Both the position numbers and the translations under genes were made by a program. Below the pieces are notes generated by a model. That model was not told the origin of the DNA. It was given only the letters and a program-made list of their open reading frames with translations, and searched no databases. A stretch of 64,000 nucleotides of DNA from positions 672,001-736,000 of the forward strand of contig CP060223.1 in assembly GCA_023898465.1 (NCBI GenBank), written 5' to 3'. This DNA is from Candidatus Nomurabacteria bacterium (GTDB taxonomy: Bacteria > Patescibacteriota > Patescibacteriia > HK-STAS-PATE-3). Of the stretch, positions 6,955 to 61,390 are shown piece after piece (positions within the stretch are counted from its first letter, which is position 1; each line of letters starts with the position of its first letter).

Positions 6955-6985
6955 TAGCAAAAGCGGGTAGCCAACGGCACCCGCT
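6955..6985 (-). terminator. Rho-independent terminator downstream of 7042..7590 gene
   Basis: Minus strand reads AGCGGGTGCCGTTGGCTACCCGCT (7-bp stem AGCGGGT/ACCCGCT) followed by TTTTGCTATT. Confidence 0.5.
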
Positions 6986-7041
6986 CATTACTCCCTCCAT
7001 AGGGTATTTCACCAGAAACAGATTAAGAAAATATTAAGAGG

Positions 7042-7590: not shown

Positions 7591-7754
7591 AGTTGTCTCC
7601 TGCTAATTAATAACAGGGCTATCTTAGCCCAGTAATATCTAATAAGCAAGTCCTATTCTTAATATTTTCTTTAACTACCATATGTAAATTGTCCCTGGGT
7701 GATAACCAGCCTGATTATCACATCTGTGAAGTTCTTTGAAGAAAAGGAAGCAAA

Positions 7755-8108
7755 ATGAGGTATCTTCTCTTCCTGATTGTCGCACTGGTGGCGCTTTCAG
7801 TTGCTAGCCCCGGAGTGAGCCTTGCGACGGACACAACGGTGGAGTACTCCTTCTACGGTCCGTCCGGAGACTACAAGATCGAACTCTTCGAGGTGGGGGC
7901 ACCCTATCCATCTCGACAAGACTACGTCTACGGCTATAGTGGCACTTTCACGTATCGCCGTACTTGGTCATCGATCGTCGCCTACCGATCCTACTTCATC
8001 CGCATCACTGACCTTAACTCGGGAGTCGCAAAGCAGACTGGATCCGTCTACGTTACCTACAATGGTGGGTACTATGCGTGGTCGACCTGCTACTGGAGCT
8101 CAATGTAA
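7755..8108 (+). CDS. Small secreted Tyr/Trp/Ser-rich hypothetical protein
   Basis: 117 aa, classic signal peptide MRYLLFLIVALVALSVASPGVSLA, mature part about 90 aa with 17 Tyr; followed by a terminator at 8137..8172. Confidence 0.6.
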   Translation: MRYLLFLIVALVALSVASPGVSLATDTTVEYSFYGPSGDYKIELFEVGAPYPSRQDYVYGYSGTFTYRRTWSSIVAYRSYFIRITDLNSGVAKQTGSVYVTYNGGYYAWSTCYWSSM

Positions 8109-19639: not shown

Positions 19640-21385
19640 TTAGTTAGCGGCAGCTACGGCGGACGGAATCTCCGTCACCAGCTGCTCCAGCTCCTTAATC
19701 TTCTCTGTCGGCACTTCTTTCATGCGGCCGATGCGCTCTTTGATTGGCAGGTTGACCATCTGCTTCAAGTTCACTCCCCGCTCCAGCGCCTCTTGGGCGG
19801 CGTGGTGGAAGGCCAGGATACCCTTTAACATGTAGTATTGCTTCTGCAGACTGGTGTAGGTATCAACGTCATCGAAGGCGTTTTGCATCAGGAAGTCTTC
19901 GCGTAATGCTCGAGCGGTTTCTAATACTAATTGCTCCTTAGCCGACAAAGCGTCCTGTCCGACCAAGCGAACGATTTCTTCTAGCTCAGACTCTTGCTGC
20001 AGTAAGCGCATAGCTTCACCGCGCAATTCGCCGAAATCACTGCCGGTTTCTTTGCTGAAGAAGCTTTGTAAATCATCTGAGTAGAGTGAGTAGCTGGTTA
20101 ACCAGTTAATTGATGGGAAGTGACGGCGATAGGCCAGCTTCGCTTCGAGTGACCAGAACACTTTTGTCACACGTAAGGTGTTTTGCGTTACTGGCTCAGA
20201 CAAGTCACCGCCAGGAGGAGAAACAGCTCCTACCACAGTGAGTGAACCTTGGCGACCTTCGCTACCGAGTGTTTCCACGATTCCAGCTCGCTCATAAAAG
20301 GCGGCGGTACGGGAACCAAGATAGGCTGGGTAACCTTCTTCACCTGGCATTTCTTCCAGACGACCAGAAATTTCACGCATAGCCTCGGCCCAGCGGGAAG
20401 TTGAGTCAGCCATCAAGGCAACGCTGTAACCCATGTCACGGAAATATTCCGCAATAGTGATACCGGTATACACCGATGCTTCACGAGCTGCCACCGGCAT
20501 ATTGGAGGTGTTGGCAATCAACACTGTGCGTTCCATCAAAGGCTTACCAGTCTTAGGATCTTTTAACTCAGGGAATTCCAGCAACACGTCAGTCATTTCA
20601 TTGCCGCGCTCACCGCAGCCGATGAAGATAACAATGTCCGCATCAGCCCACTTCGCCAGCTGGTGCTGAATCACGGTCTTACCAGCGCCGAAAGGACCAG
20701 GGATACACGCGGCACCGCCCTTCGCAACTGGGAAGAAGGTATCAATAATGCGCTGTCCGGTAATCAGAGGACGCATTGGAGGTAATTTTTGCTTGACCGG
20801 TCGTGGATCGCGAATTGGCCAGCGCTGCAACATGGTGATTTCTTCTTTATCAACCACTGCTACAACTTCGGTAATGTTGTGTTCACCTGTCGCAATTTTT
20901 TTCACAGTACCTTCTTGAATATGTGGAGGTACGAGAATTTTGTGGGTGATCAGGCTGGTTTCTTGCACCTCACCCAGGACATCACCAGCGTGCACGACAT
21001 CACCCTCTTTTACCTTTGGCTGAAAATCCCACTTCTTTTCTTCATCAAGTGGAGCTACATCCAAACCGCGACCGATGAAAGCGCCTGAGCGCTCTTCCAG
21101 CTTCACGAGCGGTCGCTGAATACCATCATAGAACGAGGTCAGCAAACCCGGACCCAGAGTCACGGCCAGAGGGAGCTCAGTGCGGTACACTGGCTCGCCT
21201 GGTCCTAAACCTCCGGTGTCTTCATACACCTGGATATAGGCTTGATCGCCGTCCAGACGGATGATTTCTCCGACCAATTTCTGTTCGGATACTTTCACCA
21301 CTTCATACATTTTCGCTCCTTGCATGCCTTTCGCAACCACGAGAGGGCCGGAGACTTTGGTGATAATTCCTGTGTGTTCTTTCAT
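19640..21385 (-). CDS. atpA: V/A-type ATP synthase subunit A (catalytic)
   Basis: 581 aa, [21 protein letters not shown]…, P-loop GPFGAGKTV. Confidence 0.93.
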
Positions 21386-23831: not shown

Positions 23832-25871
23832 TTATGCAGATGTCGACTTTGGACCAGAGGCGTCCTGATCGGCATCCATCTTGTTATGAATAAGATCTGA
23901 CTGAGTTAAGGTGTCCACATCAACGTACTTTGCCTGACGAGCAAAGGACTTAAAGCGACTACCGCCGCCTTCCATAAACTTCGGGAAAAATTCCACGTAT
24001 TGCAAACGGCCTGAGTGGATAAAAGAGCCGAGTGCGTTTATAGCAAGATTGAAAAGGTGTCCCCCAACCAAAATTCCGATAGCTACCACCCATCCGAAAA
24101 TCGGGATCATGTCTTTGAAAAGTAAGGCAACCATATTCACCACTACGGCAATGATGCCAGTGGAGAGTCCAAGTGCGAGCAAGCGAGAATATGACATGAC
24201 ATCAGAAAAATAACCGACAATGTTGTACAGACTGAGGATGCCCATTGGAATCTTCAGGAAAATATTTTTTTGGCGACGGCCCTGCGTCAAAACCAAAGTA
24301 GCAAGACCAGCGTACACCCAATACACACCAATTTGCCCTAAGATATCGCTCTGTATCGCCTGCCCGGCAACCAGCCAGAAAACTACACCGATTAAGAGGA
24401 AGAGCCAAGCGCCAGCATCAAAAGCTGCGTCCCAGGACTTCTGGCGAATTTGGTAATACAAATTAATACTCACACCAACAATTACCTGCACCACGCCAAT
24501 AGCGAGGGAGAAAACGAGTAGAGTGAGTGGATTGCTGACCGGATCGATAATCTTCAGGCTGAGTAAAAAGGATGTGATGGCATTCTTTGGTAGATCTTCC
24601 AAAACTAGTCCAAACCAACCACCAAAAGCTGCACCTACTACAAAGGTGGCAATACCAGCGTAGATAAGGAGTCGATAAAAGCCTTGCTTAGCTCGTGGCA
24701 ACTTAAAAAGTTTAATAGCGAGGAAAGAAAAACCAGCCAAAATAATGCCATAGCCGGCGTCTGACAAACACATGGCAAAATAGAAAATGAAAAACGGTGC
24801 CAGATAAGGTGTCGGGTCTAGTTCATTTGGCTTAGGTGCACCATAAATACTAGTAACTGATTCAAAAGGCTGCACTAAATTAGTATTTGTAAGCAGTACT
24901 GGAGGCTCTTCATCCTCTGCTAAAGCCAGCTCAAGGAGGGTAGCGCTCGTGCTCACCTTATGTAGAGCTTCTTCTAGCTCAACAAAACGAGAAGCTGGAA
25001 TGTATCCGCTCAACGCAAAGGTACGCTCTTGCGAAGCTGCGTTTAAAGAGGCGGCAACTTTATCACGTTGCCAAGTCAGGCCGTCAAAAATAATCTGTAG
25101 GTCGTGTACGTGCTGAGAAAGCTTTGTCGCTTCTGCTTGGGCAGTTTCCAATAAAGCAGCTAAGCGCAACATTTCCTTTTCTCGCTCAGTAATCGCCTCT
25201 TGGACAGTGCCCTGATGCTCAGGCAAGTTTACTTCTTGGAAATGATATTCCGTCAGCGCATTCTGCAACCAAGCCTCAGCTGAACGATGACTGACAATAT
25301 ATACCTTTACCTGCTTATCTGTACCAGGTAAGCGTTGTAGCTCAATTGCTTGATGCTCTTTGGTAATAGCTGCTTCAAGAAGCATGAGCTGCTCTTCAGT
25401 GAAAGTGCCGATGCGTACCTGTGCGCTCTCTAGTTTTTGATCTAAGCGCAGCGATAAATCTGACCAATGAGCGAGTAATAGCTGTTCTGCGCGCATCCGA
25501 TTGATATCAGACTGGTAGCTATTCATATCAGCTTCCAGTTTTTCTACCTGCTGGATGAAAGGCGCCAAATCAAATTCCTGCAATAACTTGGCCACTTCTT
25601 CATGTGAAACCGTAATTCCCTGGCTACCCATCGCAGCCAAACGCTCTCGAAAGCTCTGTTTTTGCTTCGGGGTATAGCGAGCAAGGAAATCCAAAGCAAA
25701 CTTTACACCAGCCAAGCGATACTCAATCTGGGATAATGCTTCATTTTGTTCCTCAGCTCCATCCATATGGATAAGCTGCATTTGGCCAAAATCATAGAGC
25801 AGTTCGAGCATTTTCTGCCGATCTGCCTGGAGACCGAGGACAAGGATTTTCTTTACCGGAGCTACTGCCAT
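23832..25871 (-). CDS. atpI: V/A-type ATP synthase subunit I (a-subunit)
   Basis: 679 aa, cytoplasmic N-terminal half plus C-terminal multi-TM domain with conserved Arg region (…SYSRLLALGL…). Confidence 0.88.
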   Translation of the reverse strand: MAVAPVKKILVLGLQADRQKMLELLYDFGQMQLIHMDGAEEQNEALSQIEYRLAGVKFALDFLARYTPKQKQSFRERLAAMGSQGITVSHEEVAKLLQEFDLAPFIQQVEKLEADMNSYQSDINRMRAEQLLLAHWSDLSLRLDQKLESAQVRIGTFTEEQLMLLEAAITKEHQAIELQRLPGTDKQVKVYIVSHRSAEAWLQNALTEYHFQEVNLPEHQGTVQEAITEREKEMLRLAALLETAQAEATKLSQHVHDLQIIFDGLTWQRDKVAASLNAASQERTFALSGYIPASRFVELEEALHKVSTSATLLELALAEDEEPPVLLTNTNLVQPFESVTSIYGAPKPNELDPTPYLAPFFIFYFAMCLSDAGYGIILAGFSFLAIKLFKLPRAKQGFYRLLIYAGIATFVVGAAFGGWFGLVLEDLPKNAITSFLLSLKIIDPVSNPLTLLVFSLAIGVVQVIVGVSINLYYQIRQKSWDAAFDAGAWLFLLIGVVFWLVAGQAIQSDILGQIGVYWVYAGLATLVLTQGRRQKNIFLKIPMGILSLYNIVGYFSDVMSYSRLLALGLSTGIIAVVVNMVALLFKDMIPIFGWVVAIGILVGGHLFNLAINALGSFIHSGRLQYVEFFPKFMEGGGSRFKSFARQAKYVDVDTLTQSDLIHNKMDADQDASGPKSTSA

Positions 25872-41092: not shown

Positions 41093-43807
41093 CTATAACT
41101 CAGGCGCCTGCTCGACTCGGATAACCCCACCAACCTCTAAAATCGCTTTATCACGACGACCTAACTGACCCTTTAAGAGATAGTCAGCTAATGCGTTATC
41201 AACTCGCTCTTGAATAACACGGCGCAAAGGTCGAGCACCAAAGACCGGATCAAATCCAATCTCAGCTAATTCCTGCACCGCAGCTTCAGTTGCTTCAAAA
41301 GTAATACCGCGACCCTCTAATTGTCGTTGCACCTTTGCAAGAAGTAGGCGCACGATCTGCACAATCTCATCCTTTTGCAATGGGCGGAATACGGTAATCT
41401 TATCAAAACGGTTGAGAAATTCTGGGCGATAATATTGATTCAGCACGGAGTTGATGAGCTCCTGCGTAATACCTTCAATCGTGGCCTTTTCTTGAATGCG
41501 TTTTTGAATCAGGTCTGAACCTGCGTTGGAGGTTGAAATGATAATCGTATTGGTGAAGTCGATCGTACGACCAATGCCATCAGTTAATCGGCCATCATCA
41601 AACACCTGCAGGAAAATATTCAACACATCAGGATGCGCCTTTTCCAATTCATCAAGCAAGACGAGAGAGAAGGGACTCTTGCGCACCGCTTCAGTTAAGT
41701 AACCGCCTACTGGACCCTGCGTGCCTTGATTACTACCGATCAGGCGAGAAATACTGCTCGGCTCCTGATACTCCGACATGTCGAGACGGATCATCGCATC
41801 CTCGGATCCAAAATACGCTTCGGCTAAAGTTTTTGCCAGCTCGGTTTTACCTACACCAGTCGGACCAAGGAAAAGGAAGGTGGCAATCGGTCGCTTTTGA
41901 TCACGCAATTCTGCTCGAGCACGACGGAGCGCTGCGGCAACTGCTTTGACTGCCTCATCCTGACCAATGATGCGCTGATGCATGGTTGATTCCAAGTTGA
42001 GTAACTTCTCAGACTCGGACTCATTCACTTTAGTTACTGCCACATGCGTTTTACTAGAAACAATCTTTGCCACATCTTCACCGTCTACAAAACTATTCTT
42101 ACCTTTGTGCTTATGAGCATCAACTGCAACTTCTTCCAGCAAGCTAATCGCTTTTTCCGGCAAGTAGCGATCGTGCATGTAGCGCTGTGAAAGGACTACG
42201 GTTTTTTCTAATGCATCGTAGGTAAAGAAAATGTGATGCTTATATTCAAGCGGACCGGCCTTCACCATAAGTATGCGCACCGCTCCATCAGTATCTACTT
42301 CCTGGCAATCAACTTTGGTAAAGGTGCTGGTGAGTGAAGATTGGTTTTCAATATAGCGCGTGTAGTCAATTGGATTAGTGGTGCCGATCACCTGCACTCG
42401 TCCGGTCTCCAGTGCCTGACTCAACACATCAGAGAGATCAAAACTCTCTCCACCGGCTGAAGAAATACCAACAATGTTTTGAATATTATCAATGAGTAAA
42501 ATGATATTTCCTGACTTCACCACTTCAGACAAAATCTGATTCAAGCGTCCTTCTAATTCTCCAGTTGACCCGGCATTACCAACCAGAGCTGCCACAGATA
42601 ATGAAACCAGGCGCTTATCTTTCAAAACATCCGGCACTTCCTCGGTCACCATGCGGCGAGCAATGCCATCGACAATCGCAGTCTTCCCTACGCCAGGATT
42701 ACCAACCAACATGGGACTGCCGCCTCGCTCCAAAACGCGAAACATTTCATCCAGCACTTCCTCACGTCCGACAGTCATCGGGACAGCGCCCCGTTGCGCT
42801 AAATCAGTTAAGTCATGGCTGTACTGATTCAGCATTCGAGTTTCTTGTGCCGTCATGGCCCGGTTCATACCACGCTTCGGTCGCCAAGCTGCCCGCTTAC
42901 GGAAACGCTTATACTGCTCGCACAAATCTTCCTCAATATGCGCCCAAGCCACAACGTGTCGCAGCTTGTTCTCATCTACTTCTAGGTCATAAAGAATATC
43001 CTGGGTGTGCGTTTCTGAAGTAGCTAAGGCGACCAAGACTTCCAGCACGCCAACTTGTTGACGCTTCGTTGCATAGGCTTCTCGATAGGCAGCGCAGAGT
43101 AGCTTTTTTGTTGAAGTGGAAAGATGCGGCTCCCCTGGCCAATCCTGTGGCATGCCAGTGAAAAGTTTCCCAATGCGTTGCTTCAATTGCTCGTACTGAA
43201 TATTTAAACGGGCAAAAAGTACAGCCGCTGTCCGCGTAGTTAACATTGCCGCTAAAATATGCGAGGGCCAAATTTCACGATGATTTAAATGATTCGCAAT
43301 ATCCCAAGCCTGCTGCAGCATGTGCTCTAACTCGTTGTCGAGCAAAGCTGGTAGGTCCTCTACTTTGTCGGCAAAATCTGCCTCGGAGATTTGCTCCAAG
43401 GACAATACCGTCTCCATCTCAGCTGGAGTCTGTCGCGTAATTTTCTTTCGCGGTTTTAACTCTCGCTCAATGCGAAAGTAGGCGTAACAGTCAGTTGCTA
43501 ATGAAATCCAAAAGATCAACATAGCTGGGCTGCGCAAATCCCAAAGGTCGAGCAGTGAAGCGCCGCCCTGAAGCAGTTGATACAACTCCCAAAAACCAAT
43601 GAGGAAACCCGCCAGACCAAAGAAGACTAGGAAACCGTTTATAAAGGCACGTAATCCTCGAGCAAACTTTTCGCCACTTACTTCGCTGCGACCAAATGTT
43701 TTATCCCAGTACAAAATCCGACTGCCAAACATCTCAGAGTAAGGCGCTGGTCGCTGGCCCTTTGGACTGGCCGGTGCTGGATTAGAAAAGCTGTCGGATG
43801 ATGGCAT
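41093..43807 (-). CDS. ClpA/B/C-family AAA+ chaperone ATPase with N-terminal 2-TM membrane anchor
   Basis: 904 aa. About 130-aa N-terminal extension with two hydrophobic helices; Clp_N repeats; AAA-1 (GNPGVGKTA, Walker B IILLIDNIQ); AAA-2 (GPTGVGKTE, LVLLDELEKAH, sensor motifs). No obvious long ClpB middle domain. Confidence 0.85.
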   Translation of the reverse strand: MPSSDSFSNPAPASPKGQRPAPYSEMFGSRILYWDKTFGRSEVSGEKFARGLRAFINGFLVFFGLAGFLIGFWELYQLLQGGASLLDLWDLRSPAMLIFWISLATDCYAYFRIERELKPRKKITRQTPAEMETVLSLEQISEADFADKVEDLPALLDNELEHMLQQAWDIANHLNHREIWPSHILAAMLTTRTAAVLFARLNIQYEQLKQRIGKLFTGMPQDWPGEPHLSTSTKKLLCAAYREAYATKRQQVGVLEVLVALATSETHTQDILYDLEVDENKLRHVVAWAHIEEDLCEQYKRFRKRAAWRPKRGMNRAMTAQETRMLNQYSHDLTDLAQRGAVPMTVGREEVLDEMFRVLERGGSPMLVGNPGVGKTAIVDGIARRMVTEEVPDVLKDKRLVSLSVAALVGNAGSTGELEGRLNQILSEVVKSGNIILLIDNIQNIVGISSAGGESFDLSDVLSQALETGRVQVIGTTNPIDYTRYIENQSSLTSTFTKVDCQEVDTDGAVRILMVKAGPLEYKHHIFFTYDALEKTVVLSQRYMHDRYLPEKAISLLEEVAVDAHKHKGKNSFVDGEDVAKIVSSKTHVAVTKVNESESEKLLNLESTMHQRIIGQDEAVKAVAAALRRARAELRDQKRPIATFLFLGPTGVGKTELAKTLAEAYFGSEDAMIRLDMSEYQEPSSISRLIGSNQGTQGPVGGYLTEAVRKSPFSLVLLDELEKAHPDVLNIFLQVFDDGRLTDGIGRTIDFTNTIIISTSNAGSDLIQKRIQEKATIEGITQELINSVLNQYYRPEFLNRFDKITVFRPLQKDEIVQIVRLLLAKVQRQLEGRGITFEATEAAVQELAEIGFDPVFGARPLRRVIQERVDNALADYLLKGQLGRRDKAILEVGGVIRVEQAPEL

Positions 43808-44309: not shown

Positions 44310-45413
44310 CTATAACTGCCCTAGGCGAATCTGTGCTCGAATCTTCTCCATCAAGCGGAGATAGAATCGCACATTATGGATGGTGCACAAGCGCTGCGCC
44401 AAAGGATCCTCTGTGGCAAACAAATGCCGGATGTAGGCGCGTGTTGTTGTCTGGCAAGTTGCACAATCACAGCTGGTATCAATCGGACGCAAATCAGACT
44501 TATATTTTGCATTGGCAATTTTTAGCACCTCGTAAAATTTCCCACGCAGCTCATCACGCTTCCAGACAAATAAAGAACCATGGCGTGCGTTTCGGGTTGG
44601 CACTACGCAGTCAAACATATCAACACCTTGCTGCACCGCTTCCACAATTTGCTCGGGCGGACCAACGCCCATGAGGTAATGTGCTGAGTCCTGCGGCAAC
44701 TCGGGTACGGTCCACTCTAAAACGCGATACATTTCCTTGGCCGTCTCACCCACCGCTAATCCACCAATCGCAAATCCATCAAAGGGCATCTCGCGCAAGG
44801 TCTGCGCATGCGCGATACGGAGATCTTTCTCCCCCGCTCCCTGCACAATAGCAAAACGTAATTGCCCCTGGGTGCGCTTCACCTTGGTACTGCGCTCAGC
44901 CCAGTGCGTGGTTAAAGCAATTGATCGCTCTATCTCCGCACGCGAACTATGAAAAGGCGGACACACATCAAGCAGCATTGCAATGTCAGTACCTAAACGT
45001 GATTGAATATCCAGTGCCCGCTCTGGAGTCAGGAAATGTTTACTGCCATCAACCGTATCTCGGAAACGAACGCCGCGCCGGCTGAGCACGCGGTGCTTGG
45101 CCAAACTAAACACCTGATAGCCGCCCGAGTCAGTTAAGATGGGACCTTGCCATCCCATGAAGTCATGCAGGTCGCCAGCTTTTTGAATGACCGAGAGACC
45201 CGGCCGCAGCCACAGATGATAGGTGTTTGATAAAATAATGTGTGCACCCAGTCCGCGCATAGAGGAAATTTCTAAAGCCCGAACTGAACCACGTGTCGCG
45301 ATCGGCATAAAAAAAGGCGTGGGAATATTCCCATGCGCAGTCGTGAGGCGGCCGAGGCGCGCCTGACTTTTTCGCGATGTTTTGAGCAGCCGAAACGCTT
45401 TATTCCGTGCCAT
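44310..45413 (-). CDS. tgt: Queuine tRNA-ribosyltransferase (tRNA-guanine transglycosylase)
   Basis: …ARLGRLTTAHGNIPTPFFMPIATRGSV… canonical Tgt N-terminus; zinc site C-x-C-x2-C…H near the C-terminus. Confidence 0.92.
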   Translation of the reverse strand: MARNKAFRLLKTSRKSQARLGRLTTAHGNIPTPFFMPIATRGSVRALEISSMRGLGAHIILSNTYHLWLRPGLSVIQKAGDLHDFMGWQGPILTDSGGYQVFSLAKHRVLSRRGVRFRDTVDGSKHFLTPERALDIQSRLGTDIAMLLDVCPPFHSSRAEIERSIALTTHWAERSTKVKRTQGQLRFAIVQGAGEKDLRIAHAQTLREMPFDGFAIGGLAVGETAKEMYRVLEWTVPELPQDSAHYLMGVGPPEQIVEAVQQGVDMFDCVVPTRNARHGSLFVWKRDELRGKFYEVLKIANAKYKSDLRPIDTSCDCATCQTTTRAYIRHLFATEDPLAQRLCTIHNVRFYLRLMEKIRAQIRLGQL

Positions 45414-47376
45414 TGTTGCCGTCTGTCACTACACCCTGACCGGTGGCATATTGATCCGCATCAAGGTTAGTGGTGAGTGAATCGTCAGAGACGCTTAAGG
45501 CCTCGTTGGTAAAACTGTCAGTGCCCTCTAACTTGGATGCATCAAGTAAAACCATAACCTTACCCAGGTCACTAGCATTTGGCGTCACCGCAACTTCAAA
45601 GCTGGCGCTTAATGCGTCACTGCTATAACCAACCCCGGCTGGTACGCGGCTAAATTGCCAAGTGATAGTCCGATCGCTGGGGGTAAAGGTAATTGATCCC
45701 AAGCTAGTGGAAATATTTTTCCCAGCCCAAAATACATTGCTCGGTAAGGTGGCGGAAATCTTCACGTTTCCCAATTCATTTACTGTATTGCTCACCTTCC
45801 AAAACAAACGATAGGTTGTAGTTTCTCCAACTTGCGGAGGCAAGGGCCCATCGCCAATTTTAGTAAAGTCTTCGGAATAGTAGCGCGCCTCGGCCGCCAA
45901 AGATGCCTGAGTGATGAGCTTCACAGTAATCGGCTGACTACTCGCCTGCACCTGACTTGCACCGAGCTCCTCTGCCTCACCCTCTATACTCGCCTGCCCA
46001 ATAAGCTCTGGGTTAGTCACTGAACTGTCGCTGGCTAAGCTATCAAGTAATTGCACGCTAATGGTAAATTCATCCTTGCTGCCAGAACGCAACTCGCCTA
46101 AGTCCTCAATTTGCTCCTTGGTCCATATCAAGGTATTTCCCTCGCGCTGAGCTGAATGCGGCTCAACCAAGCTGTCCCAATCAACCAAATCTCCATCGAG
46201 CTGAACCCGTAGCGTTACATCTCGAATCACTTCATCAGTTTGATTCGCATAGCTCAAGGTATATTGCAGAGTGCTACCAAAAGTTAACGCGCGATCTTCA
46301 TGTCCGCTGTTTAGACTGAGGTCTACATTGAGTTCCGGTCGTACCAACTGCACAATAATGCGCTGCTCGGTTTGTAATTGAAAGCTGCCTGTGTTGGATA
46401 AGATGCCCACCCGCGCGACAAGCTCCTGCAAAGAATCAACATCACCGCTCAATTGAGCAGTCACCTGCACCCGCTCTTCATCACCGGGCGCTAAATCCGC
46501 AAAGGTCCACGTCTTCCCCACCTCGGCTGCTGGGTCACTCGACTTCATGCTAAACCCGTCTGGAGTATCTAAAGTTAGTCGCGCCTGGCTGATATCTTCC
46601 TCTGAATTATTTTTCACCAGGAGCTCATACTGCACTTCGCTATCTGGAATCACGCGAGAGGGGCCGTCAAACTGCAGTCCGAGATTAGACTGGGAAATGG
46701 TGAAACTCTCACTAGACTGAGTCACGAATTCTGAGTTAAAGGTCGCTGGCACATAGCTGAGAATAGCCGTGATGCTATGTTCGCTGCCCACATCACCGAC
46801 CACGGTACCGGTGATGGTTATGCGTCGTCCATAACCTGAATCCATATCACCGAGCAGGAAGGAATTTTTTGCATCATTAGCCGGCGCAATGCTCGTATTG
46901 GTTACCTTGAAGCCGTCAGGATAGTTAATATTGAGCTCAGCTGATCGCAGCTTCACTGCTTCACCATTCTGTATAAGTAATTCAAAACTTAGTTCGCCAC
47001 CCGAAGCTACATCGGTCGGCACTTCCATCTTCACTTGTACTTTATTGCCCGTGAAACGCTGCCCGGAAGTGAAATAGAAAAAGCCGGCCACTGCTGCCAC
47101 GACAATCAAGCTCAGGATGCTAAAGAAGGCGATCTTACCCCAAGGCTTTCGCGTCGACTTCTTCCGCGTTATGGTGGTCATGTCCGTCTTCTCCGCCTTT
47201 TCCTCGGCCTGCAAAACTTCAGCAAAGGCTTGCAAGCGTTCGTCGGTCATTTCGTCATCCTGTTTGATGTCGATTTTTTTTGGCTCGTTTTCCTTCTTTG
47301 CTTCTGCCGGCTTCTCAGGAGTTTCCGGTGCTTTCGGTGCAGACTTTTTCTCGGTTTTTCGTGAAGATTTTGCCAT
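45400..47376 (-). CDS. Hypothetical membrane-anchored protein with Lys/Glu-rich N-terminus and repeated beta-rich extracytoplasmic domains
   Basis: 658 aa; single TM (IAFFSILSLIVVAAVAGFFYF) after an about 80-aa charged cytoplasmic tail; overlaps tgt start by 14 nt. Confidence 0.6.
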   Translation of the reverse strand: MAKSSRKTEKKSAPKAPETPEKPAEAKKENEPKKIDIKQDDEMTDERLQAFAEVLQAEEKAEKTDMTTITRKKSTRKPWGKIAFFSILSLIVVAAVAGFFYFTSGQRFTGNKVQVKMEVPTDVASGGELSFELLIQNGEAVKLRSAELNINYPDGFKVTNTSIAPANDAKNSFLLGDMDSGYGRRITITGTVVGDVGSEHSITAILSYVPATFNSEFVTQSSESFTISQSNLGLQFDGPSRVIPDSEVQYELLVKNNSEEDISQARLTLDTPDGFSMKSSDPAAEVGKTWTFADLAPGDEERVQVTAQLSGDVDSLQELVARVGILSNTGSFQLQTEQRIIVQLVRPELNVDLSLNSGHEDRALTFGSTLQYTLSYANQTDEVIRDVTLRVQLDGDLVDWDSLVEPHSAQREGNTLIWTKEQIEDLGELRSGSKDEFTISVQLLDSLASDSSVTNPELIGQASIEGEAEELGASQVQASSQPITVKLITQASLAAEARYYSEDFTKIGDGPLPPQVGETTTYRLFWKVSNTVNELGNVKISATLPSNVFWAGKNISTSLGSITFTPSDRTITWQFSRVPAGVGYSSDALSASFEVAVTPNASDLGKVMVLLDASKLEGTDSFTNEALSVSDDSLTTNLDADQYATGQGVVTDGNNGTE

Positions 47377-54919: not shown

Positions 54920-56584
54920 TCATGATGCCTGCTCCTCTGTTCGTTCCATTTTCTCTGGTGCGTGAATTCCCATAAGTGCTAATGTCTTTTGTAGCACAAG
55001 CTTGGACGCCTGGCAAAGTTCATACGCTGGCAAAGAAACCTGCTCGTTATCAATCACGCGCACTTTGGTATAAAAATTGTGAAAAGCCGTAGCTAAAGAC
55101 ATGGCGTATTGCGGCAACTCATGCACGCTGGAGCGACGTGCTACCTGCGCCACCAGCTCGGGGAAACGGAGTAACTGCTTTACTAATTCATCGGCGCTTG
55201 GCTCTTGTAAGGCAGCCTTGGTGGTCTTCCCTTTTTTGACCAGCGGATCAGCCTTACGCAAAATGCTGGCAATGCGAGCATGCGCATACTGCACATAGTA
55301 CACGGGGTTCTTGTCGGACTGCTCGCGGGCCAGATTCAAATCAAAATCCATATGCGTATTCATGCCTGACATGAGGAAGAAGAAGCGCGCCGCATCAATG
55401 CCCACATCCTTAATCAATTCATCAATGGTGACAAAGGTGCCACTGCGCTTGGACATGCGCACCTCTTTACCATCTTCCATTAGGCGAACGAGCTGGAAAA
55501 TGTGAATAGTCAGACGCCCTTCCCAACCCAAGGCCCGCATCGCTGCTTGCATGCGTCCTACATACCCATGATGATCAGCACCCAGGAGGAGTATGGCGCG
55601 CGGGTAACGTCGTACCGCAAACTTATCAAAGAGATAGGCCAGGTCAGACAGGAAGTAAGTTTTTTCGCCATCACTCTTCTTAATTGCTCTATCTTTATCA
55701 TCGCCAAAAGCTGTGGTGCGCATCCACAGCGCGCCATCTTTTTCATACAGCAGTTCGCGCGCTTCCAGCATGCGTAGGACCCGGTCAGTTAATTTCTTTG
55801 TGTGCAATTCTGACTCAAAAAAGAAATTATCAAAATCAATGCGCATCACTTTACTCAGTGTCTGCTTAATCTGCTTCATCATGGCGCGCAAAGCCTGACC
55901 GCGTAGTTTTTTCTTTGCTCGGTCAATGTACTGAATCTGCACGCCAGAAAAATCCAGCGTCTTGGCTAATTCCTTCACATACTCACCCTGGTAGCAGGTG
56001 TCAGGATACGGGACCGGGATACCCTGCTCCTGGAAGTAACGGCGAATGATTGATTCAGCTAAAGTATCAACCTGCTTCCCAATGTCATTTACATAGTACT
56101 CTCGATACACACGATAGCCGGCCATCTCCAACACATTTCCCAAGGTGTCGCCTGTAAAACCTCCACGGCCGTTTCCTAAATGCAGCGGACCAGTCGGGTT
56201 AGCTGAAATAAACTCCAAATGCACGCGCTCACCTTGTCCCACTTCGAGGTGTCCATAGTGATTGCCGCTAAGGAGAATGCGCTTCGCTTGCTTCCGGAGC
56301 CAGTCTGTCTTCAGGTAGATATTAATGAAGCCCGGCGGCACCACATCAAGCTTGCCCACTGAGGCAAGTGGAATACCCGGAGCAATAATCTTCTGTGCAA
56401 TATCAACTGGTGCCATTTTTAAGCGAGCAGCCAATTGCATTGCAATGTTGCTGGAAAAATCGCCGTGTCGTGCATCTGCTGGCGGCTCAATCAGCACCTC
56501 GGGCAAATCGCCTTCTAATTCGGGCCAAACAGTCAAAATATTCTTGACCAGGCGCTTCCGTATCTGATCACTCAGTAATAACAT
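54920..56584 (-). CDS. argS: Arginine--tRNA ligase
   Basis: …SANPTGPLHLGNGRGGFTGDTLGNVL… (HIGH-type) and C-terminal DALR anticodon-binding domain; start chosen at MLLLSDQIRKRL (56584), alternative M1 at 56653. Confidence 0.88.
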   Translation of the reverse strand: MLLLSDQIRKRLVKNILTVWPELEGDLPEVLIEPPADARHGDFSSNIAMQLAARLKMAPVDIAQKIIAPGIPLASVGKLDVVPPGFINIYLKTDWLRKQAKRILLSGNHYGHLEVGQGERVHLEFISANPTGPLHLGNGRGGFTGDTLGNVLEMAGYRVYREYYVNDIGKQVDTLAESIIRRYFQEQGIPVPYPDTCYQGEYVKELAKTLDFSGVQIQYIDRAKKKLRGQALRAMMKQIKQTLSKVMRIDFDNFFFESELHTKKLTDRVLRMLEARELLYEKDGALWMRTTAFGDDKDRAIKKSDGEKTYFLSDLAYLFDKFAVRRYPRAILLLGADHHGYVGRMQAAMRALGWEGRLTIHIFQLVRLMEDGKEVRMSKRSGTFVTIDELIKDVGIDAARFFFLMSGMNTHMDFDLNLAREQSDKNPVYYVQYAHARIASILRKADPLVKKGKTTKAALQEPSADELVKQLLRFPELVAQVARRSSVHELPQYAMSLATAFHNFYTKVRVIDNEQVSLPAYELCQASKLVLQKTLALMGIHAPEKMERTEEQAS

Positions 56585-59283: not shown

Positions 59284-59730
59284 ATGCCAACACTCGCCGT
59301 CAACAAATCTGTGGGCTTCAGCTTCGAAATTCAAGAGAAATTCGAGGCTGGTATTGCATTGTCTGGCCCAGAGGTAAAGGCGGCCAAGCAAGGCAACATC
59401 AGCTTGAAAGGAAGCTACATCACTATCCGGCCTGATGGCGCTTGGCTCATTGGCTGCTATATCTCCCCTTATAAGCCGGCGCAAGCTACCCAGCAAGGCT
59501 ATACCCCGACCCGAGATCGCCACCTCTTACTCCGTCAGAGCGAACTCAGCCGATTAGTGGGTGCTGCCAGCGCAAAAGGCTTGACAGTACTGCCTATTTC
59601 CTTTTATACTAAAGGAGGCTTGATAAAGGTTGAAGTCGCTATTGCTAAAGGCAAAAAAAAGGCAGACAAGCGGGAAAGCATTAAAAAACGTGATATTGAG
59701 CGGCGCATCCGCCAATCAGTCCATCACTAA
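59284..59730 (+). CDS. smpB: SsrA-binding protein
   Basis: MPTLAVNKSVGFSFEIQEKFEAGIALSGPEVKAAKQGNISLKGSYI… canonical SmpB; the track ORF starts 171 nt too early; TATACT -10-like element 15 nt upstream of ATG. Confidence 0.9.
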   Translation: MPTLAVNKSVGFSFEIQEKFEAGIALSGPEVKAAKQGNISLKGSYITIRPDGAWLIGCYISPYKPAQATQQGYTPTRDRHLLLRQSELSRLVGAASAKGLTVLPISFYTKGGLIKVEVAIAKGKKKADKRESIKKRDIERRIRQSVHH

Positions 59731-59777
59731 ACTTTGAGCCTTCACCCAGTCGACTGGAGCGTGTTTCCAACTGACCG

Positions 59778-60180
59778 GGGGGATGCCCAATAATCGATCG
59801 ATCGTTCACAATCTGTGCAGGCAAGCCGGTCACCCAGGTCTCCCGTAACAGGCCCTGGAAAAAGCAAGTGTCAATTCATTTGCCAGCAAGGTAAAGAACT
59901 CCATTGCTAACGCAATGCAGTCACTCCAACTTGCGCCAGTTGTCGCGTAAAAACCGATAACCATCTATGCTTACGATGTCCTGAGTTGTTCGCATGGGTG
60001 CTACACTTATCAGGATAGGAACCTACCTTGTCTCGGGTTTGTTCCGAACTATTGAGACTAGGAAATAAATGATTTCGTTCGTTTCATACATTTGTTTCTG
60101 AAGCATTAAAGCGAACTAGGCTTGTAGAATGTACACGATTGTACGATGAGACGCGGGCGTGATACCCGCCATCTCCACCA
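59778..60180 (+). ncRNA. ssrA: tmRNA (ssrA), predicted
   Basis: About 400-nt ORF-free gap right after smpB. 5' GGGGAUG pairs with 3' CAUCUCC-A-CCA, giving a 7-bp acceptor stem with G3:U wobble (the Ala identity element) and encoded CCA. T-arm GCGGG-CGUGAUA-CCCGC sits just before it (same stem as E. coli, deviant loop). 5' AUCGAUCGUUCACAAUC is complementary to 3' GAUUGUACGAU (P2). Perfect 8-bp terminator hairpin immediately follows at 60182-60207. Candidate tag frame ends …LAPVVA-UAA. Confidence 0.6.
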
Positions 60181-60181
60181 A

Positions 60182-60207
60182 CCTTCGCTGTATTGAGCGA
60201 AGGTTGT
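60182..60207 (+). terminator. Terminator hairpin after ssrA
   Basis: CCTTCGCT-GTATTG-AGCGAAGG followed by TTGT. Confidence 0.5.
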
Positions 60208-60236
60208 CCGCCGAAGCTTTATGCGAAGGTGGACAA

Positions 60237-60839
60237 ATGAATGTACATCAACAAGTATGCGGTAACGCAGCTTCGGTTGGCACGGCCATCCGAGATATGC
60301 ATTCAAACATTTATTCATTAACCACTCCGGCAATTCAGAAAAGGCTTCGCATCAATCACTTTATTCGGATTCCTGAAGTTCGCTTGATTGACGAACAAAA
60401 TACACAGGTGGGGGTTGTTCCAACTTCAGATGCCTTACGCATGGCAGAAGAACGGGGCCTCGACCTTGTTGAGGTTGCACCACAAGCTCAACCGCCGGTC
60501 TGTCGCCTACTCGACTACGGCGCCTATCAATATCAACAGGAACGCCAAGAACGAAAAGCCAAAGCCAAACAAAAGAAGTCTGAAGTCAAAGGAATTCGCA
60601 TCTCTTTCAAAATCGGTGAACATGATCTGGATGTTCGCCAGAAGCAAGCCCAGAAGTTCCTCGAGCAGGGTCACAAAGTGAAATTAGAAATGCTACTGCG
60701 TGGTCGAGAAAAGGCCATGAAGCATCTCGCTGAAGAAAAGCTCCGTAATTTTGTGAGCACGCTCGGTGAATCCGTCACCATTGATCAAGATATTACCCGC
60801 CAAGGAGGAAAATTTTTCCTCGTAGTCCGTAAAAAATAA
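60237..60839 (+). CDS. infC: Translation initiation factor IF-3
   Basis: …IRIPEVRLIDEQNTQVGVVPTSDALRMAEERGLDLVEVAPQAQPPVCRLLDYG… typical IF3. Start uncertain: ATG 60237 has AAGGTGG SD; ATG 60297 or a non-AUG (ATT) start, as in many infC genes, are alternatives; track ORF starts at 60159. Confidence 0.85.
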   Translation: MNVHQQVCGNAASVGTAIRDMHSNIYSLTTPAIQKRLRINHFIRIPEVRLIDEQNTQVGVVPTSDALRMAEERGLDLVEVAPQAQPPVCRLLDYGAYQYQQERQERKAKAKQKKSEVKGIRISFKIGEHDLDVRQKQAQKFLEQGHKVKLEMLLRGREKAMKHLAEEKLRNFVSTLGESVTIDQDITRQGGKFFLVVRKK

Positions 60840-60841
60840 GT

Positions 60842-61039
60842 ATGCCTAAGCTCAAGACCCACAAAGCAACTGCCAAGCGTTTCACCTTTACGAAAAAAGG
60901 TAAAATCCAACGCCGCAAAACCGGCCAGGATCATTTCAATGCACGAGAATCAAGTCGTACCACCATGCGGAAGCGACGAGACAGCTCAGCAGCTAAAGCC
61001 GACGTACGGAAAATCCGCAACGTCCTACCCTATCACTAA
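60842..61039 (+). CDS. rpmI: 50S ribosomal protein L35
   Basis: MPKLKTHKATAKRFTFTKKGKIQRRKTGQDH…. Confidence 0.92.
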   Translation: MPKLKTHKATAKRFTFTKKGKIQRRKTGQDHFNARESSRTTMRKRRDSSAAKADVRKIRNVLPYH

Positions 61040-61051
61040 TGCACGAAACAC

Positions 61052-61390
61052 ATGCGAGTTAAGCGCGGTACATCACACATCAAACGACGTAAGAATTTAC
61101 TCAGTCGAGCCAAGGGCTTTCGCTGGGGACGTAAAAGTCATCCTAAGCTAGCCCGAACTGCAGTACTGAAAGCTGGTGCTCACGCCTACCGAGATCGACG
61201 CAAGAAAAAGCGTGATTTCCGCAGCCTCTGGAACATCAAGATCAATGCTGCTTCACGAGAACAGGGCGTTACCTACCATGAACTGATTGATAAGCTGAAG
61301 AAGGGTAACATCAACCTCAATCGAAAAGTATTGGCTGAGCTAGCCGAACATGAACCAGCAGTCTTTGCTGAAGTAGTGAAACAGGCCTAA
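61052..61390 (+). CDS. rplT: 50S ribosomal protein L20
   Basis: MRVKRGTSHIKRRKNLLSRAKGFRWGRKS… canonical L20. Confidence 0.92.
   Translation: MRVKRGTSHIKRRKNLLSRAKGFRWGRKSHPKLARTAVLKAGAHAYRDRRKKKRDFRSLWNIKINAASREQGVTYHELIDKLKKGNINLNRKVLAELAEHEPAVFAEVVKQA

What the first reader, a model, noticed from the sequence alone, without database searches (positions are those of the whole stretch)
59731..60236. Predicted tmRNA next to smpB with a non-canonical T-loop and an atypical tag end
The acceptor stem (G3:U wobble), encoded CCA, P2 complementarity, the following terminator and smpB adjacency all fit ssrA. However, the T-loop reads CGUGAUA instead of the near-universal UUCRANU, and the only plausible tag frame ends …LAPVVA rather than …LAA. 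Either the tag/T-loop are lineage-specific variants or my boundaries are slightly off. The linkage smpB-ssrA-infC-rpmI-rplT is also notable.
Basis: partly seen in the sequence, partly recalled or inferred. Interest (0 to 1): 0.5.

Follow-up and report, generated by a model that had tools for sequence, protein, structure and literature searches.

The report
Real tmRNA gene, lineage-variant elbow
This is a genuine ribosome-rescue RNA (tmRNA) gene sitting next to its partner gene smpB in an uncultured ultra-small (Patescibacteria) bacterium; its odd T-loop and odd tag ending are normal variants for that lineage, which also explains why a standard gene finder misses it.

Summary
Rfam RF00023 gives one full-length tmRNA at 59779-60180 (+), 74 bits against a cut-off of 47, 48 nt after smpB and followed by infC-rpmI-rplT. 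ARAGORN misses it.

The T-loop is CGUGAUA, closed by a perfect 5-bp stem. An independent assembly of the same species carries the same T-loop, so it is not an error.

The tag is VNSFASKVKNSIANAMQSLQLAPVVA, with resume codon GUC at 59870 and the stop inside the helix-5 loop. It is homologous to relatives' tags, which mostly end in x-A rather than A-A; three of 39 end in VVA.

About 44% of 66 related Patescibacteria tmRNAs have non-canonical T-loops. These track the D-loop:
- UUCRANN loops have GG at the G18G19 position (36/37).
- YGNRANN loops, the window's class, have A-N there (28/30).

This looks like a G18·U55 to A18·G55 swap, and two-piece tmRNAs show it too. CGUGA also fits the general T-loop motif (a C:A handle plus a GNR turn).

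Verdict: an ordinary functional ssrA with lineage-specific elbow, resume codon and tag. Only C54 is rare. Interest is low to moderate.

The parts
59284..59730 (+). smpB (SsrA-binding protein, 148 aa)
   Evidence: Pfam PF01668 SmpB, E 1.8e-45, profile positions 2-141 of 143. 1205 homologues were found; the best named ones are Patescibacteria (Buchananbacteria, Kerfeldbacteria) at 50-62% identity.
59731..59778 (+). 48-nt spacer, the presumed 5' leader removed by RNase P (inferred)
   Evidence: Lies between the smpB stop and G1 of the tmRNA. The only strong sigma-70-like match nearby (TTGACA-18-TATACT, 11/12) is at 59581-59610, inside smpB. That is a consensus match only.
59779..60180 (+). ssrA: standard one-piece tmRNA, 402 nt including the encoded CCA
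   Evidence: Rfam RF00023, 74 bits (gathering score 47), E 7e-27, model positions 1-374 of 374, not truncated. ARAGORN finds nothing here.
59779..59785 (+). Acceptor stem, 5' strand GGGGAUG (G3 of the G3·U70 alanine identity pair)
   Evidence: Seven pairs with 60170-60176, read directly from the sequence. L009 shows three compensatory changes in this stem.
59786..59797 (+). D-loop analogue CCCAAUAAUCGA. A59790-U59791 occupy the position of the usual GG (G18G19 equivalents). The UCGA box is at 59794-97.
   Evidence: Register taken from the conserved UCGA box. Canonical relatives have GG here in 36/37 cases; YGNRANN-class relatives have A-N in 28/30.
59801..59826 (+). Helix 2, 5' strand
   Evidence: Direct complementarity: 59801-05 with 60143-47, 59808-13 with 60137-42, 59814-19 with 60130-35, and 59822-26 with 60120-24. 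Consistent with the Rfam structure line.
59827..59858 (+). Pseudoknot 1
   Evidence: Rfam alignment. CCAGG at 59834-38 pairs with CCUGG at 59854-58, and CGG at 59827-29 pairs with CCG at 59843-45, both read from the sequence. It is followed by an 11-nt single-stranded spacer, as in E. coli.
59870..59950 (+). Tag reading frame: resume codon GUC (Val) at 59870-72, 26 codons VNSFASKVKNSIANAMQSLQLAPVVA, stop UAA at 59948-50
   Evidence: - The Rfam alignment puts GUC under the consensus resume GCA.
- ARAGORN calls exactly this frame once the gene is 'normalised' in silico.
- The tag is homologous to relatives' tags (ANSFVSKV..., VNSFASKVKTLV...).
- Both tag differences between the window and L081 are synonymous.
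59939..59961 (+). Helix 5, with the stop codon in its loop
   Evidence: GUUGUCG at 59939-45 pairs with CGAUAAC at 59955-61. The 9-nt loop contains UAA.
59962..60116 (+). Pseudoknots 2-4
   Evidence: Rfam alignment. The PK2 stem (59962-67 with 59995-60000) and the PK4 stem (60077-84 with 60109-16) are recovered by RNAalifold with many compensatory changes among 20 relatives.
60120..60147 (+). Helix 2, 3' strand
   Evidence: Complementary to 59801-59826.
60153..60169 (+). T-arm: stem GCGGG/CCCGC and 7-nt T-loop C54 G55 U56 G57 A58 U59 A60 at 60158-60164
   Evidence: - Perfect 5-bp stem.
- The stem covaries at 3 of 5 pairs among 20 relatives.
- Identical in the independent assembly L081.
- Nearest T-loops are UGCAAUA (L082) and UGUGAUU (L008, L138).
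60170..60180 (+). Acceptor stem 3' strand CAUCUCC, discriminator A60177, encoded CCA at 60178-80
   Evidence: Read directly from the sequence.
60179..60235 (+). Two stable hairpins just after the CCA. They may act in 3' processing or termination, but there is no U-tract.
   Evidence: An 11-bp perfect inverted repeat at 60179-89 and 60196-206. Folding gives -32.6 kcal/mol, z -6.35. Not called as an intrinsic terminator. The position is not conserved in L082 or L084.
60297..61390 (+). infC (about 60297-60839), rpmI (60842-61039) and rplT (61052-61390)
   Evidence: Pfam IF3_N/IF3_C, Ribosomal_L35p and Ribosomal_L20. An IF3 gene lies in 53 of 85 related loci, mostly directly downstream of ssrA on the same strand.

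Best explanation
This is the functional ssrA gene (a standard one-piece tmRNA) of a Patescibacteria (CPR) bacterium.

**Inferred mode of action, from the well-established trans-translation pathway:**
1. The transcript is trimmed to 59779-60180.
2. SmpB, encoded immediately upstream, binds the tRNA-like domain.
3. AlaRS charges the RNA through G3·U70 and A73.
4. EF-Tu delivers it to the empty A site of a stalled ribosome.
5. The nascent chain is transferred to Ala.
6. Translation resumes on GUC at 59870 and adds VNSFASKVKNSIANAMQSLQLAPVVA before stopping at UAA.
7. The ribosome is released and the protein is marked for proteolysis.

**The unusual features are lineage variants, not defects:**
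- The T-loop CGUGAUA still satisfies the general T-loop motif. It has a 54:58 trans Watson-Crick/Hoogsteen 'handle', here C:A instead of U:A. It also has a GNR turn in place of the UNR turn.
- The change is coupled to the D-loop. The usual G18G19 is A-U here, and across relatives G18 with U55 is replaced by A18 with G55.
- The G19-C56 pair is not kept in this gene (U19, U56).
- With C54 and G55, the m5U54 and pseudouridine-55 modifications known from E. coli tmRNA cannot be made.

**Status of the evidence:** the gene, its architecture, its conservation, the coding constraint on the tag and the D/T-loop covariation are shown. Expression, charging, tagging and the actual 3D geometry of the elbow are inferred.
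For: **Gene identity**
- Full-length RF00023 hit at 74 bits, and the only tmRNA in the 64 kb.
- An intact smpB lies 48 nt upstream.
- ssrA directly follows smpB in 18 of the 20 closest related loci, and in most of the other related loci scanned.
- G3·U70, A73, CCA, helix 2, PK1 and helix 5 with the stop in its loop are all read from the sequence.
- The acceptor, T-stem, PK2 and PK4 stems show compensatory changes among 20 relatives.

**Not an error or a pseudogene**
- An independent assembly (L081, Logan SRR17818317, SmpB 99% identical) has the same T-loop and D-loop.
- It differs at only 4 of 402 nt. Two of those are in the tag, and both are synonymous.
- The tag is 17/26 identical to that of L082, where SmpB is only 62% identical, with many synonymous differences.

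**Tag is typical of the lineage**
- Of 39 ARAGORN-called Patescibacteria tags, only 2 end in AA. Nine end in LA and six in VA, and three end in VVA.
- Lengths run from 8 to 28 codons, with a median near 21.
- GUC resume codons also occur in L082 and L147. Val resume codons occur in 2 of 39 ARAGORN calls.

**Elbow**
- 29 of 66 related tmRNAs have non-canonical T-loops.
- GG in the D-loop goes with UUCRANN in 36/37, and is absent in 26/29 of the others. Fisher p = 5.5e-14, not corrected for phylogeny.
- At the register-defined G18G19 position, YGNRANN loops have A-N in 28/30. When position 19 is G, position 56 is C in 8/8.
- Five permuted tmRNA genes with G55 also have A-G at that position (read).

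**Literature**
- T-loops are a UA_handle plus a UNR or GNR turn. The handle is U:A in 92% of cases and C:A in 4% (PMC2615604).
- A U342-to-G change is already recorded in Caulobacter tmRNA (PMC1168896).
Against: - There are no expression, processing, aminoacylation or tagging data.
- Only 64 kb of the genome is visible, so a second, canonical ssrA elsewhere cannot be excluded.
- The Rfam score (74 bits) is at the low end for the lineage, where relatives score 62-147 bits.
[quoted passage not shown] A remodelled elbow therefore needs explaining.
- C54 is rare. It was seen only in this species and in one 79-nt mini-tmRNA, L156.
- The D/T covariation statistics are not phylogenetically corrected, and the D-loop register rests on the UCGA box alone.
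- The U19/U56 combination cannot form a Watson-Crick pair.
Confidence: 0.88

Rival explanations
1. The tRNA-type elbow has been lost. The loop N-GNRA-NN folds as a GNRA-like tetraloop and no longer docks with the D-loop, so SmpB or other contacts alone hold the tRNA-like domain in shape.
For: - All 13 G55 loops in the unbiased genome set read GNRA at positions 55-58.
- Position 56 is free (C 8, U 3, A 2), whereas it is invariant C in 37 canonical loops.
- GG is absent from every D-loop of this class.
- SmpB of this class differs in the loop at window residues 64-71, with an insertion and Gln70 in 11/13.
Against: - R57 and A58 are conserved in canonical T-loops too, so 'GNRA' needs only the single change U55 to G.
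- U54 is kept in 12/13, which suggests the 54:58 handle is retained.
- A at the G18 position in 28/30 argues for a maintained D-loop contact.
- G19-C56 is kept whenever position 19 is G (8/8).
- GNR turns are a normal part of T-loop motifs (PMC2615604).
- The SmpB differences are confounded by phylogeny.
Confidence: 0.2
2. The gene is a decaying or non-functional ssrA copy, and its odd T-loop, D-loop and resume codon are degenerative mutations.
For: ARAGORN fails on it. The Rfam score is low for the lineage. Three separate departures from the usual pattern coincide in one gene.
Against: - All helices are intact.
- The tag frame is open and conserved at the amino-acid level, with only synonymous changes relative to L081 and many relative to L082.
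- smpB is intact and adjacent.
- The same classes of departure are shared by dozens of related species and many metagenome contigs.
Confidence: 0.04
3. The T-loop reading is an artefact: a sequencing or assembly error, a wrong register, or an unnoticed intron in the T-loop.
For: Group I introns do occur in the tmRNA T-loops of some bacteria (PMC11915505).
Against: - The T-arm is identical in an independent assembly from another sample.
- The Rfam alignment is contiguous through the 3' end.
- A perfect 5-bp covarying stem closes exactly 7 nt and lies directly next to the acceptor strand.
Confidence: 0.01

Closest known systems
Standard one-piece tmRNA (Rfam RF00023; E. coli SsrA as the reference)
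   Same: - Gene order runs 5' acceptor, D-loop, helix 2, PK1, tag ORF, helix 5, PK2-4, helix 2, T-arm, acceptor, CCA.
- It has G3·U70 and A73.
- The spacer between PK1 and the resume codon is 11 nt.
- The stop codon sits in the helix-5 loop.
- The partner gene smpB is adjacent.
   Different: - T-loop is CGUGAUA rather than UUCAACU. The E. coli positions U341 and U342 are named in PMC1168896.
- D-loop has A-U where E. coli has GG.
- Resume codon is GUC (Val) rather than GCA (Ala).
- Tag is 26 codons ending VVA, rather than 10 ending LAA (PMC3968760 for the E. coli tag).
- m5U54 and pseudouridine-55 are impossible with C54 and G55.
tmRNAs of related Patescibacteria (L082 from GCA_964637345.1, L138, L008, L084, L002 and others)
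   Same: - They share the YGNRANN T-loop class with an A-N D-loop. L082 has CCUAAUAAUCGA with UGCAAUA; L138 has UCAAAUAAUCGA with UGUGAUU.
- The long tags are homologous, of the form (A/V)(N/K)SF.SKVK...LAP.VA.
- They share the smpB-ssrA(-infC) synteny.
- ARAGORN misses 12 of the 14 in this class.
   Different: The window and its conspecific L081 have C54 instead of U54, plus A60. L082 has C56 where the window has U56.
Two-piece (permuted) tmRNAs of the alpha-proteobacterial type, such as Caulobacter crescentus
   Same: G at T-loop position 2 (U342 to G in Caulobacter, PMC1168896). Five permuted genes found here carry UGCRAUU-type loops together with A-G at the D-loop GG position.
   Different: Their genes are circularly permuted and mature into two RNA pieces, with short ...ALAA-type tags. 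The window gene is colinear and one-piece (the tmRNA_permuted model scores only 16 bits, E 0.44).
General T-loop motif (UA_handle plus UNR/GNR turn) as found in rRNA, RNase P and riboswitches
   Same: C54-G55-U56-G57-A58 fits the pattern of a 1:5 handle (C:A is the commonest substitute for U:A, at 4%) followed by a GNR turn (PMC2615604).
   Different: This is a sequence-level fit only. No structure or probing data exist for this RNA.

Membership tests
tmRNA, standard one-piece form (RF00023) | Covariance-model score above the curated gathering threshold over the full model | tested here: met
   74 bits against 47, E 7e-27, model positions 1-374 of 374, not truncated. Reproduced.
tmRNA, standard one-piece form (RF00023) | 7-bp acceptor stem formed by the 5' and 3' ends, with G3·U70, discriminator A and CCA (alanine identity) | tested here: met
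   59779-85 pairs with 60170-76 including G59781·U60174. A60177 and CCA at 60178-80.
tmRNA, standard one-piece form (RF00023) | T-arm: a 5-bp stem and a 7-nt loop directly next to the acceptor 3' strand | tested here: met
   GCGGG / 7 nt / CCCGC at 60153-69. The stem covaries at 3 of 5 pairs in 20 relatives.
tmRNA, standard one-piece form (RF00023) | Canonical T-loop sequence UUCRANY (the substrate for m5U54 and pseudouridine-55) and GG in the D-loop | tested here: not met
   The T-loop is CGUGAUA and the D-loop has A-U at the GG position. This feature is typical rather than strictly defining. 29 of 66 related tmRNAs also lack it, and Caulobacter has G at position 2 (PMC1168896).
tmRNA, standard one-piece form (RF00023) | Stemless D-loop with the conserved UCGA box, a GAC before the T-stem, and a long helix 2 joining the tRNA-like domain to PK1 | tested here: met
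   UCGA at 59794-97, GAC at 60150-52, and 21 Watson-Crick or G·U pairs in four blocks of helix 2.
tmRNA, standard one-piece form (RF00023) | Internal tag ORF without a start codon, beginning about 11 nt after PK1 and ending at a stop codon in the helix-5 loop, with a hydrophobic C-terminus ending in Ala | tested here: met
   59870-59950. ARAGORN calls the same frame after in-silico normalisation. The tag is homologous in relatives and shows synonymous-only changes against L081. It ends ...LAPVVA.
tmRNA, standard one-piece form (RF00023) | Pseudoknots PK1-PK4 | tested here: inconclusive
   All four are aligned by the Rfam model, with some non-canonical pairs. One stem each of PK2 and PK4 shows strong covariation. 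PK1 is supported by complementarity only. PK3 and the second stems were not tested, because the MAFFT alignment is too poor there.
tmRNA, standard one-piece form (RF00023) | Co-occurrence with SmpB | tested here: met
   Intact smpB 48 nt upstream. The adjacency is conserved across the lineage.
tmRNA, standard one-piece form (RF00023) | Expression, alanylation and tagging activity | not testable with these tools
   No transcript, biochemical or proteomic data are available.
Permuted (two-piece) tmRNA (RF04321 and relatives) | The acceptor or CCA piece is encoded upstream of the 5' coding piece | tested here: not met
   The gene is colinear. The tmRNA_permuted model gives only 16.4 bits, E 0.44, for a truncated match.
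Intron-containing tmRNA | Group I intron interrupting the T-loop | tested here: not met
   The T-arm is contiguous, with a 7-nt loop and no insertion.
T-loop structural motif (UA_handle plus U/G-turn) | A 1:5 trans Watson-Crick/Hoogsteen pair (U:A, rarely C:A), a UNR or GNR turn at positions 2-4, and an intercalating base between positions 4 and 5 | tested here: inconclusive
   The sequence fits: C54:A58 and G55-U56-G57 (PMC2615604). A at the G18-equivalent position covaries with G55 in 28/30.

The most novel reading that the evidence does not exclude
A sizeable part of the Patescibacteria, including this organism, uses a differently built tmRNA elbow.

- The universal tRNA-type lock (G18·pseudouridine-55 and G19-C56, with m5U54:A58) is replaced by A18·G55.
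- Here a C54:A58 handle is added, and there is no 19-56 Watson-Crick platform.
- The elbow therefore cannot carry the usual modifications.
- It presents a different face to the partners that read tRNA elbows: RNase P, 23S helix 38, L5 and the L1 stalk.
- Co-adapted changes in an SmpB loop (window residues 64-71) may go with it.

If true, E. coli's requirement for D/T-loop pairing would be met by an alternative tertiary pair rather than abandoned. The 18/55 covariation would then be a general rule of tmRNA, shared with two-piece tmRNAs.
Probability: 0.3. Interest if true: 0.45.

Novelty: new member of a known kind. Interest (0 to 1): 0.28.

Why it matters
**For annotation.** ARAGORN missed this gene and 41 of 80 related smpB loci, some of which are cut off by contig ends. 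It missed 12 of 14 with the window's T-loop class. tmRNA will therefore be reported as 'absent' from many CPR genomes unless covariance models are used.

**For biology.** The case shows that the tmRNA elbow, usually treated as near-invariant, tolerates a coordinated D-loop/T-loop change. That includes loss of the U54 and U55 modification sites. The tag's C-terminus is x-A rather than A-A across the lineage, which bears on which protease reads the tag in these reduced genomes.

None of this changes the basic picture of trans-translation.

Tried and rejected
1. **Single in-silico repairs.** Repairing the T-loop alone (11 variants) or the D-loop GG alone did not restore ARAGORN detection. Detection returned only when the canonical T-loop and a GUC-to-GCC resume codon were combined with a third change. 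That third change was either D-loop GG or a G before the GAC. The T-loop alone therefore does not explain the miss. Lowering ARAGORN's threshold only produced a spurious permuted call on the opposite strand.
2. **Island attachment-site search.** A search for a duplicated tmRNA 3' end found only a 14/16 match at 56118-56133, inside the arginyl-tRNA synthetase ORF. I treat it as chance.
3. **Other RNA families.** Rfam at permissive E-values around the gene found nothing else, so the trailing hairpins are not a known L20 or IF3 leader.
4. **MAFFT plus RNAalifold on 20 relatives.** This did not recover helix 2, PK1 or PK3, because the alignment is poor in the variable parts. Helix 2 was verified by direct complementarity instead. 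A full-length custom covariance model was not attempted, because a 400-nt model exceeds the calibration limit.
5. **Metagenome pattern scan.** Only about 32 of 80 returned loci were real tmRNA 3' ends. The rest were chance matches without a T-stem.
6. **SmpB residue association with T-loop class.** A cluster appeared at residues 64-71, but it is confounded by phylogeny. One independent contrast (L009 against L014) agrees and another (L077 against L045) does not. It is kept only as a lead.
7. **The 'GNRA tetraloop' reading.** I considered it and ranked it below the T-loop-motif reading (see rivals).
8. **Bessho 2007.** The TLD-SmpB crystal structure paper is not in the held library, so contact residues could not be checked.
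Full report
**What is there.** Rfam places one full-length tmRNA (RF00023) at 59779-60180 on the + strand. It scores 74 bits against a gathering score of 47, E 7e-27, covering model positions 1-374 of 374 (repeated). It is the only tmRNA hit in the 64 kb. ARAGORN finds only a tRNA-Asp in the window and no tmRNA.

- The acceptor stem GGGGAUG (59779-85) pairs with CAUCUCC (60170-76), including G3·U70.
- The discriminator A is at 60177 and an encoded CCA at 60178-80.
- The T-arm is GCGGG / CGUGAUA / CCCGC at 60153-69.
- A long helix 2 forms from four complementary blocks between 59801-26 and 60120-47.
- PK1 is followed by an 11-nt spacer.
- Helix 5 (59939-45 with 59955-61) carries the stop codon UAA (59948-50) in its loop.

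Upstream, 59284-59730 encodes a complete SmpB (Pfam E 1.8e-45). Downstream lie infC, rpmI and rplT. The 'terminator' is only partly right. Two very stable hairpins follow the CCA (11-bp perfect repeat; -32.6 kcal/mol, z -6.35). There is no U-run, however, and the terminator scan does not call it.

**Whose gene it is.** SmpB homologues place the organism in the Patescibacteria (CPR). The closest relative outside this species is 62% identical. Named hits are Candidatus Buchananbacteria, Kerfeldbacteria and 'Patescibacteria group'.

I took 80 related smpB loci from species-representative genomes. In 18 of the 20 closest, ssrA follows smpB directly, and the same is true of most of the remaining loci that were scanned. 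An IF3 gene lies in 53 of 85 loci, mostly just downstream. The smpB-ssrA-infC linkage is therefore the normal arrangement for the lineage, not a peculiarity of this genome.

**Is the odd T-loop real?** Yes, for three reasons:
- An independent assembly from a different sample (L081, Logan SRR17818317, SmpB 99% identical) has the identical D-loop and T-arm. It differs from the window at only 4 of 402 positions.
- The 5-bp T-stem covaries at three of its five pairs among 20 relatives, while always closing a 7-nt loop next to the acceptor strand. The register is therefore correct.
- There is no intron or insertion in the arm.

**The tag.**
- The Rfam alignment puts GUC (59870-72) under the consensus resume codon.
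- This leaves the same 11-nt spacer after PK1 as in E. coli. The upstream in-frame GCA would leave only 5 nt.
- When the gene is 'normalised' in silico, ARAGORN calls exactly this frame.
- The product is VNSFASKVKNSIANAMQSLQLAPVVA.
- It is plainly homologous to relatives' tags, such as L082 VNSFASKVKTLVARAFQPMQLASAVA, L009 ANSFVSKVANAMRNAFAPSFATVAA and L008 ANSLSARVKNAFGKLALAPAVA.
- Both tag differences between the window and L081 are synonymous third-position changes. The frame is therefore under coding constraint.
- Of 39 Patescibacteria tags that ARAGORN does call, only 2 end in AA. Nine end in LA and six in VA (three of those in VVA). Lengths run from 8 to 28 codons.
- A Val resume codon recurs in L082 and L147, and in 2 of 39 ARAGORN calls.

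The 'atypical' tag end is thus typical here.

**The elbow.** I extracted the D-loop and T-loop from 66 non-redundant related tmRNAs.
- 37 have the canonical UUCRANN loop.
- 13 have YGNRANN, the window's class. Examples are UGCAAUA in the closest relative L082 and UGUGAUU in L008.
- 7 have other 7-nt loops, mostly CUCAUUA in the Buchananbacteria group.
- 9 have 6-nt loops.

On an SmpB tree the window sits inside a clade of YGNRANN genes. The T-loop class tracks the D-loop. GG is present with 36 of 37 canonical loops and absent from 26 of 29 others (Fisher p = 5.5e-14, not corrected for phylogeny).

I used the conserved UCGA box as the register and added 17 full-length metagenome tmRNAs from a pattern scan. 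The dinucleotide at the G18G19 position is then GG in 36/37 canonical genes but A-N in 28/30 YGNRANN genes. Whenever position 19 is G, position 56 is C (8/8). Five permuted two-piece tmRNA genes that surfaced in the same scan also combine G55 with A-G.

This is the pattern expected if the tertiary contact G18·U55 is replaced by A18·G55, while G19-C56 becomes optional. In the window the relevant bases are A59790-U59791 and C60158-G60159-U60160-G60161-A60162.

**Fit with what is known.**
- In tRNA, G18 intercalates between 57 and 58 and hydrogen-bonds to pseudouridine-55.
- G19-C56 forms the flat outer face that helix 38, L5, the L1 stalk and RNase P read (PMC4810234).
- In E. coli tmRNA the T-loop carries m5U and pseudouridine. 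D/T-loop interactions are reported to be needed for SmpB binding and function (PMC3968760, citing Barends 2002).
- T-loop motifs in general are a U:A trans Watson-Crick/Hoogsteen 'handle' plus a UNR or GNR turn. C:A is the commonest substitute for U:A, at 4% against 92% (PMC2615604).
- CGUGA therefore still reads as a legitimate T-loop: a C54:A58 handle and a G55-U56-G57 turn.
- G at the second T-loop position was already noted for Caulobacter two-piece tmRNA, and GG for the Reclinomonas mitochondrial one (PMC1168896).

What appears rare is C54. I saw it only in this species and in one 79-nt mini-tmRNA (L156). A direct consequence of the sequence is that neither m5U54 nor pseudouridine-55 can be made on this RNA. 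The window's own tRNA-Asp keeps the canonical GG and UUCGAAU, so the change is specific to tmRNA.

**Why ARAGORN fails.** Restoring a canonical T-loop alone, or GG alone, does not rescue detection. Detection returns only when the canonical T-loop and a GUC-to-GCC resume codon are combined with a third change. That change is either D-loop GG or a G before the GAC. Across the lineage ARAGORN finds 32/37 canonical genes but only 2/14 of the YGNRANN class. Overall it finds no tmRNA in 41 of 80 loci, some of which are truncated by contig ends. The 2025 tmRNA database paper describes an extra Rfam-based search in taxa where ARAGORN and BLAST had failed. It does not discuss T-loop variation (PMC11915505). 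I found no paper in the held library describing this elbow variation in Patescibacteria.

**Mechanism.** The best-supported reading is ordinary trans-translation:
1. SmpB binds the tRNA-like domain.
2. AlaRS charges the RNA through G3·U70 and A73.
3. EF-Tu delivers it to a stalled ribosome.
4. The ribosome resumes on GUC and appends A-VNSF...LAPVVA.
5. It terminates at UAA.

All of this is inferred from architecture and conservation. None of it is measured here. The elbow model (A18·G55, C54:A58) is an inference from covariation and motif rules.

**Rivals.**
- A GNRA-like undocked loop is possible but less likely (0.2). U54 and A18 are conserved, and G19-C56 is kept whenever G19 is present.
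- A decaying pseudogene is unlikely (0.04).
- A sequence artefact is very unlikely (0.01).

**Verdict.** This is a real, standard-form ssrA with lineage-specific variants of the T-loop and D-loop, the resume codon and the tag. It is a new member of a known kind. Its main value is practical, for annotating CPR genomes. There is a modest structural lead in the D/T-loop covariation.

Noticed in passing
L145:98-195 (-) and L156:250-328 (-): Two metagenome contigs carry 'mini-tmRNA' genes of 98 and 79 nt. Each has a tmRNA-type acceptor, D-loop, a short helix-2 hairpin and a T-arm with a G55 T-loop, but no tag ORF or pseudoknots. Rfam scores them 51.4 and 45.8 bits as tmRNA with the middle deleted. 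L156 sits next to two tRNA genes, which suggests a phage. They resemble the CDS-less forms mentioned in PMC11915505.
   Followed up: partly
80 related loci L001-L080: Patescibacteria tmRNA T-loops fall into at least four classes: UUCRANN, YGNRANN, CUCAUUA and 6-nt loops such as UUCAAU, UCCACC and CUCGCC. Each has a characteristic D-loop: GG, A-N, or Y-G/N-G respectively. ARAGORN finds no tmRNA in 41 of the 80 loci.
   Followed up: partly
window 59473-59496 (SmpB residues 64-71, KPAQATQQ): This SmpB loop differs between tmRNA elbow classes. There is a one-residue insertion, absent in 35/36 canonical-class proteins, and Gln70 in 11/13 of the G55 class where canonical proteins mostly have Pro. 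The sister pair L009/L014 agrees, but L077/L045 does not. The signal is confounded by phylogeny.
   Followed up: partly
window 4492-6819 (-), within the low-GC stretch 4001-8000: A 775-aa AAA_13-family ATPase (E 7e-118, with a weak AbiEii-like AAA_21 match) lies in a region of 37-41% GC, against about 50% elsewhere. It may be a horizontally acquired defence-type gene.
   Followed up: no
window 19640-21385 (-) and 23832-25871 (-): V/A-type ATPase genes: a catalytic A-type subunit (ATP-synt_ab plus ATP-synt_VA_C) and a subunit-I-like protein. This is a V/A-type rather than an F-type ATPase in this CPR genome.
   Followed up: no
window 13029-16736 (-) and 45400-47376 (-): Large predicted surface proteins with SdrD_B, DUF11, SpaA and DUF7507 repeat domains.
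   Followed up: no
window 41093-43807 (-): A 904-aa two-AAA Clp-type ATPase (AAA_2, ClpB_D2-small). It could be relevant to the handling of tagged proteins, but whether it is ClpB-like or ClpC-like was not examined.
   Followed up: no
window 59581-59610 (+): The best sigma-70-like match near ssrA (TTGACA-18-TATACT, 11/12) lies inside the 3' part of smpB, about 170 nt upstream of the tmRNA 5' end. It could be an internal ssrA promoter. It is a consensus match only.
   Followed up: no
window 56118-56133 (+): A 14/16 match to the tmRNA 3' end (CCGGCCATCTCCAACA) lies inside the arginyl-tRNA synthetase ORF. I judge it to be chance, not an island attachment-site repeat.
   Followed up: yes
Genome contigs record titles of L002, L003, L007, L016 and others: Many MAG records whose smpB-ssrA loci are clearly of Patescibacteria type are titled 'uncultured Gammaproteobacteria' or 'Candidatus Saccharibacteria'. 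Record titles in that collection are not a reliable guide to taxonomy.
   Followed up: no
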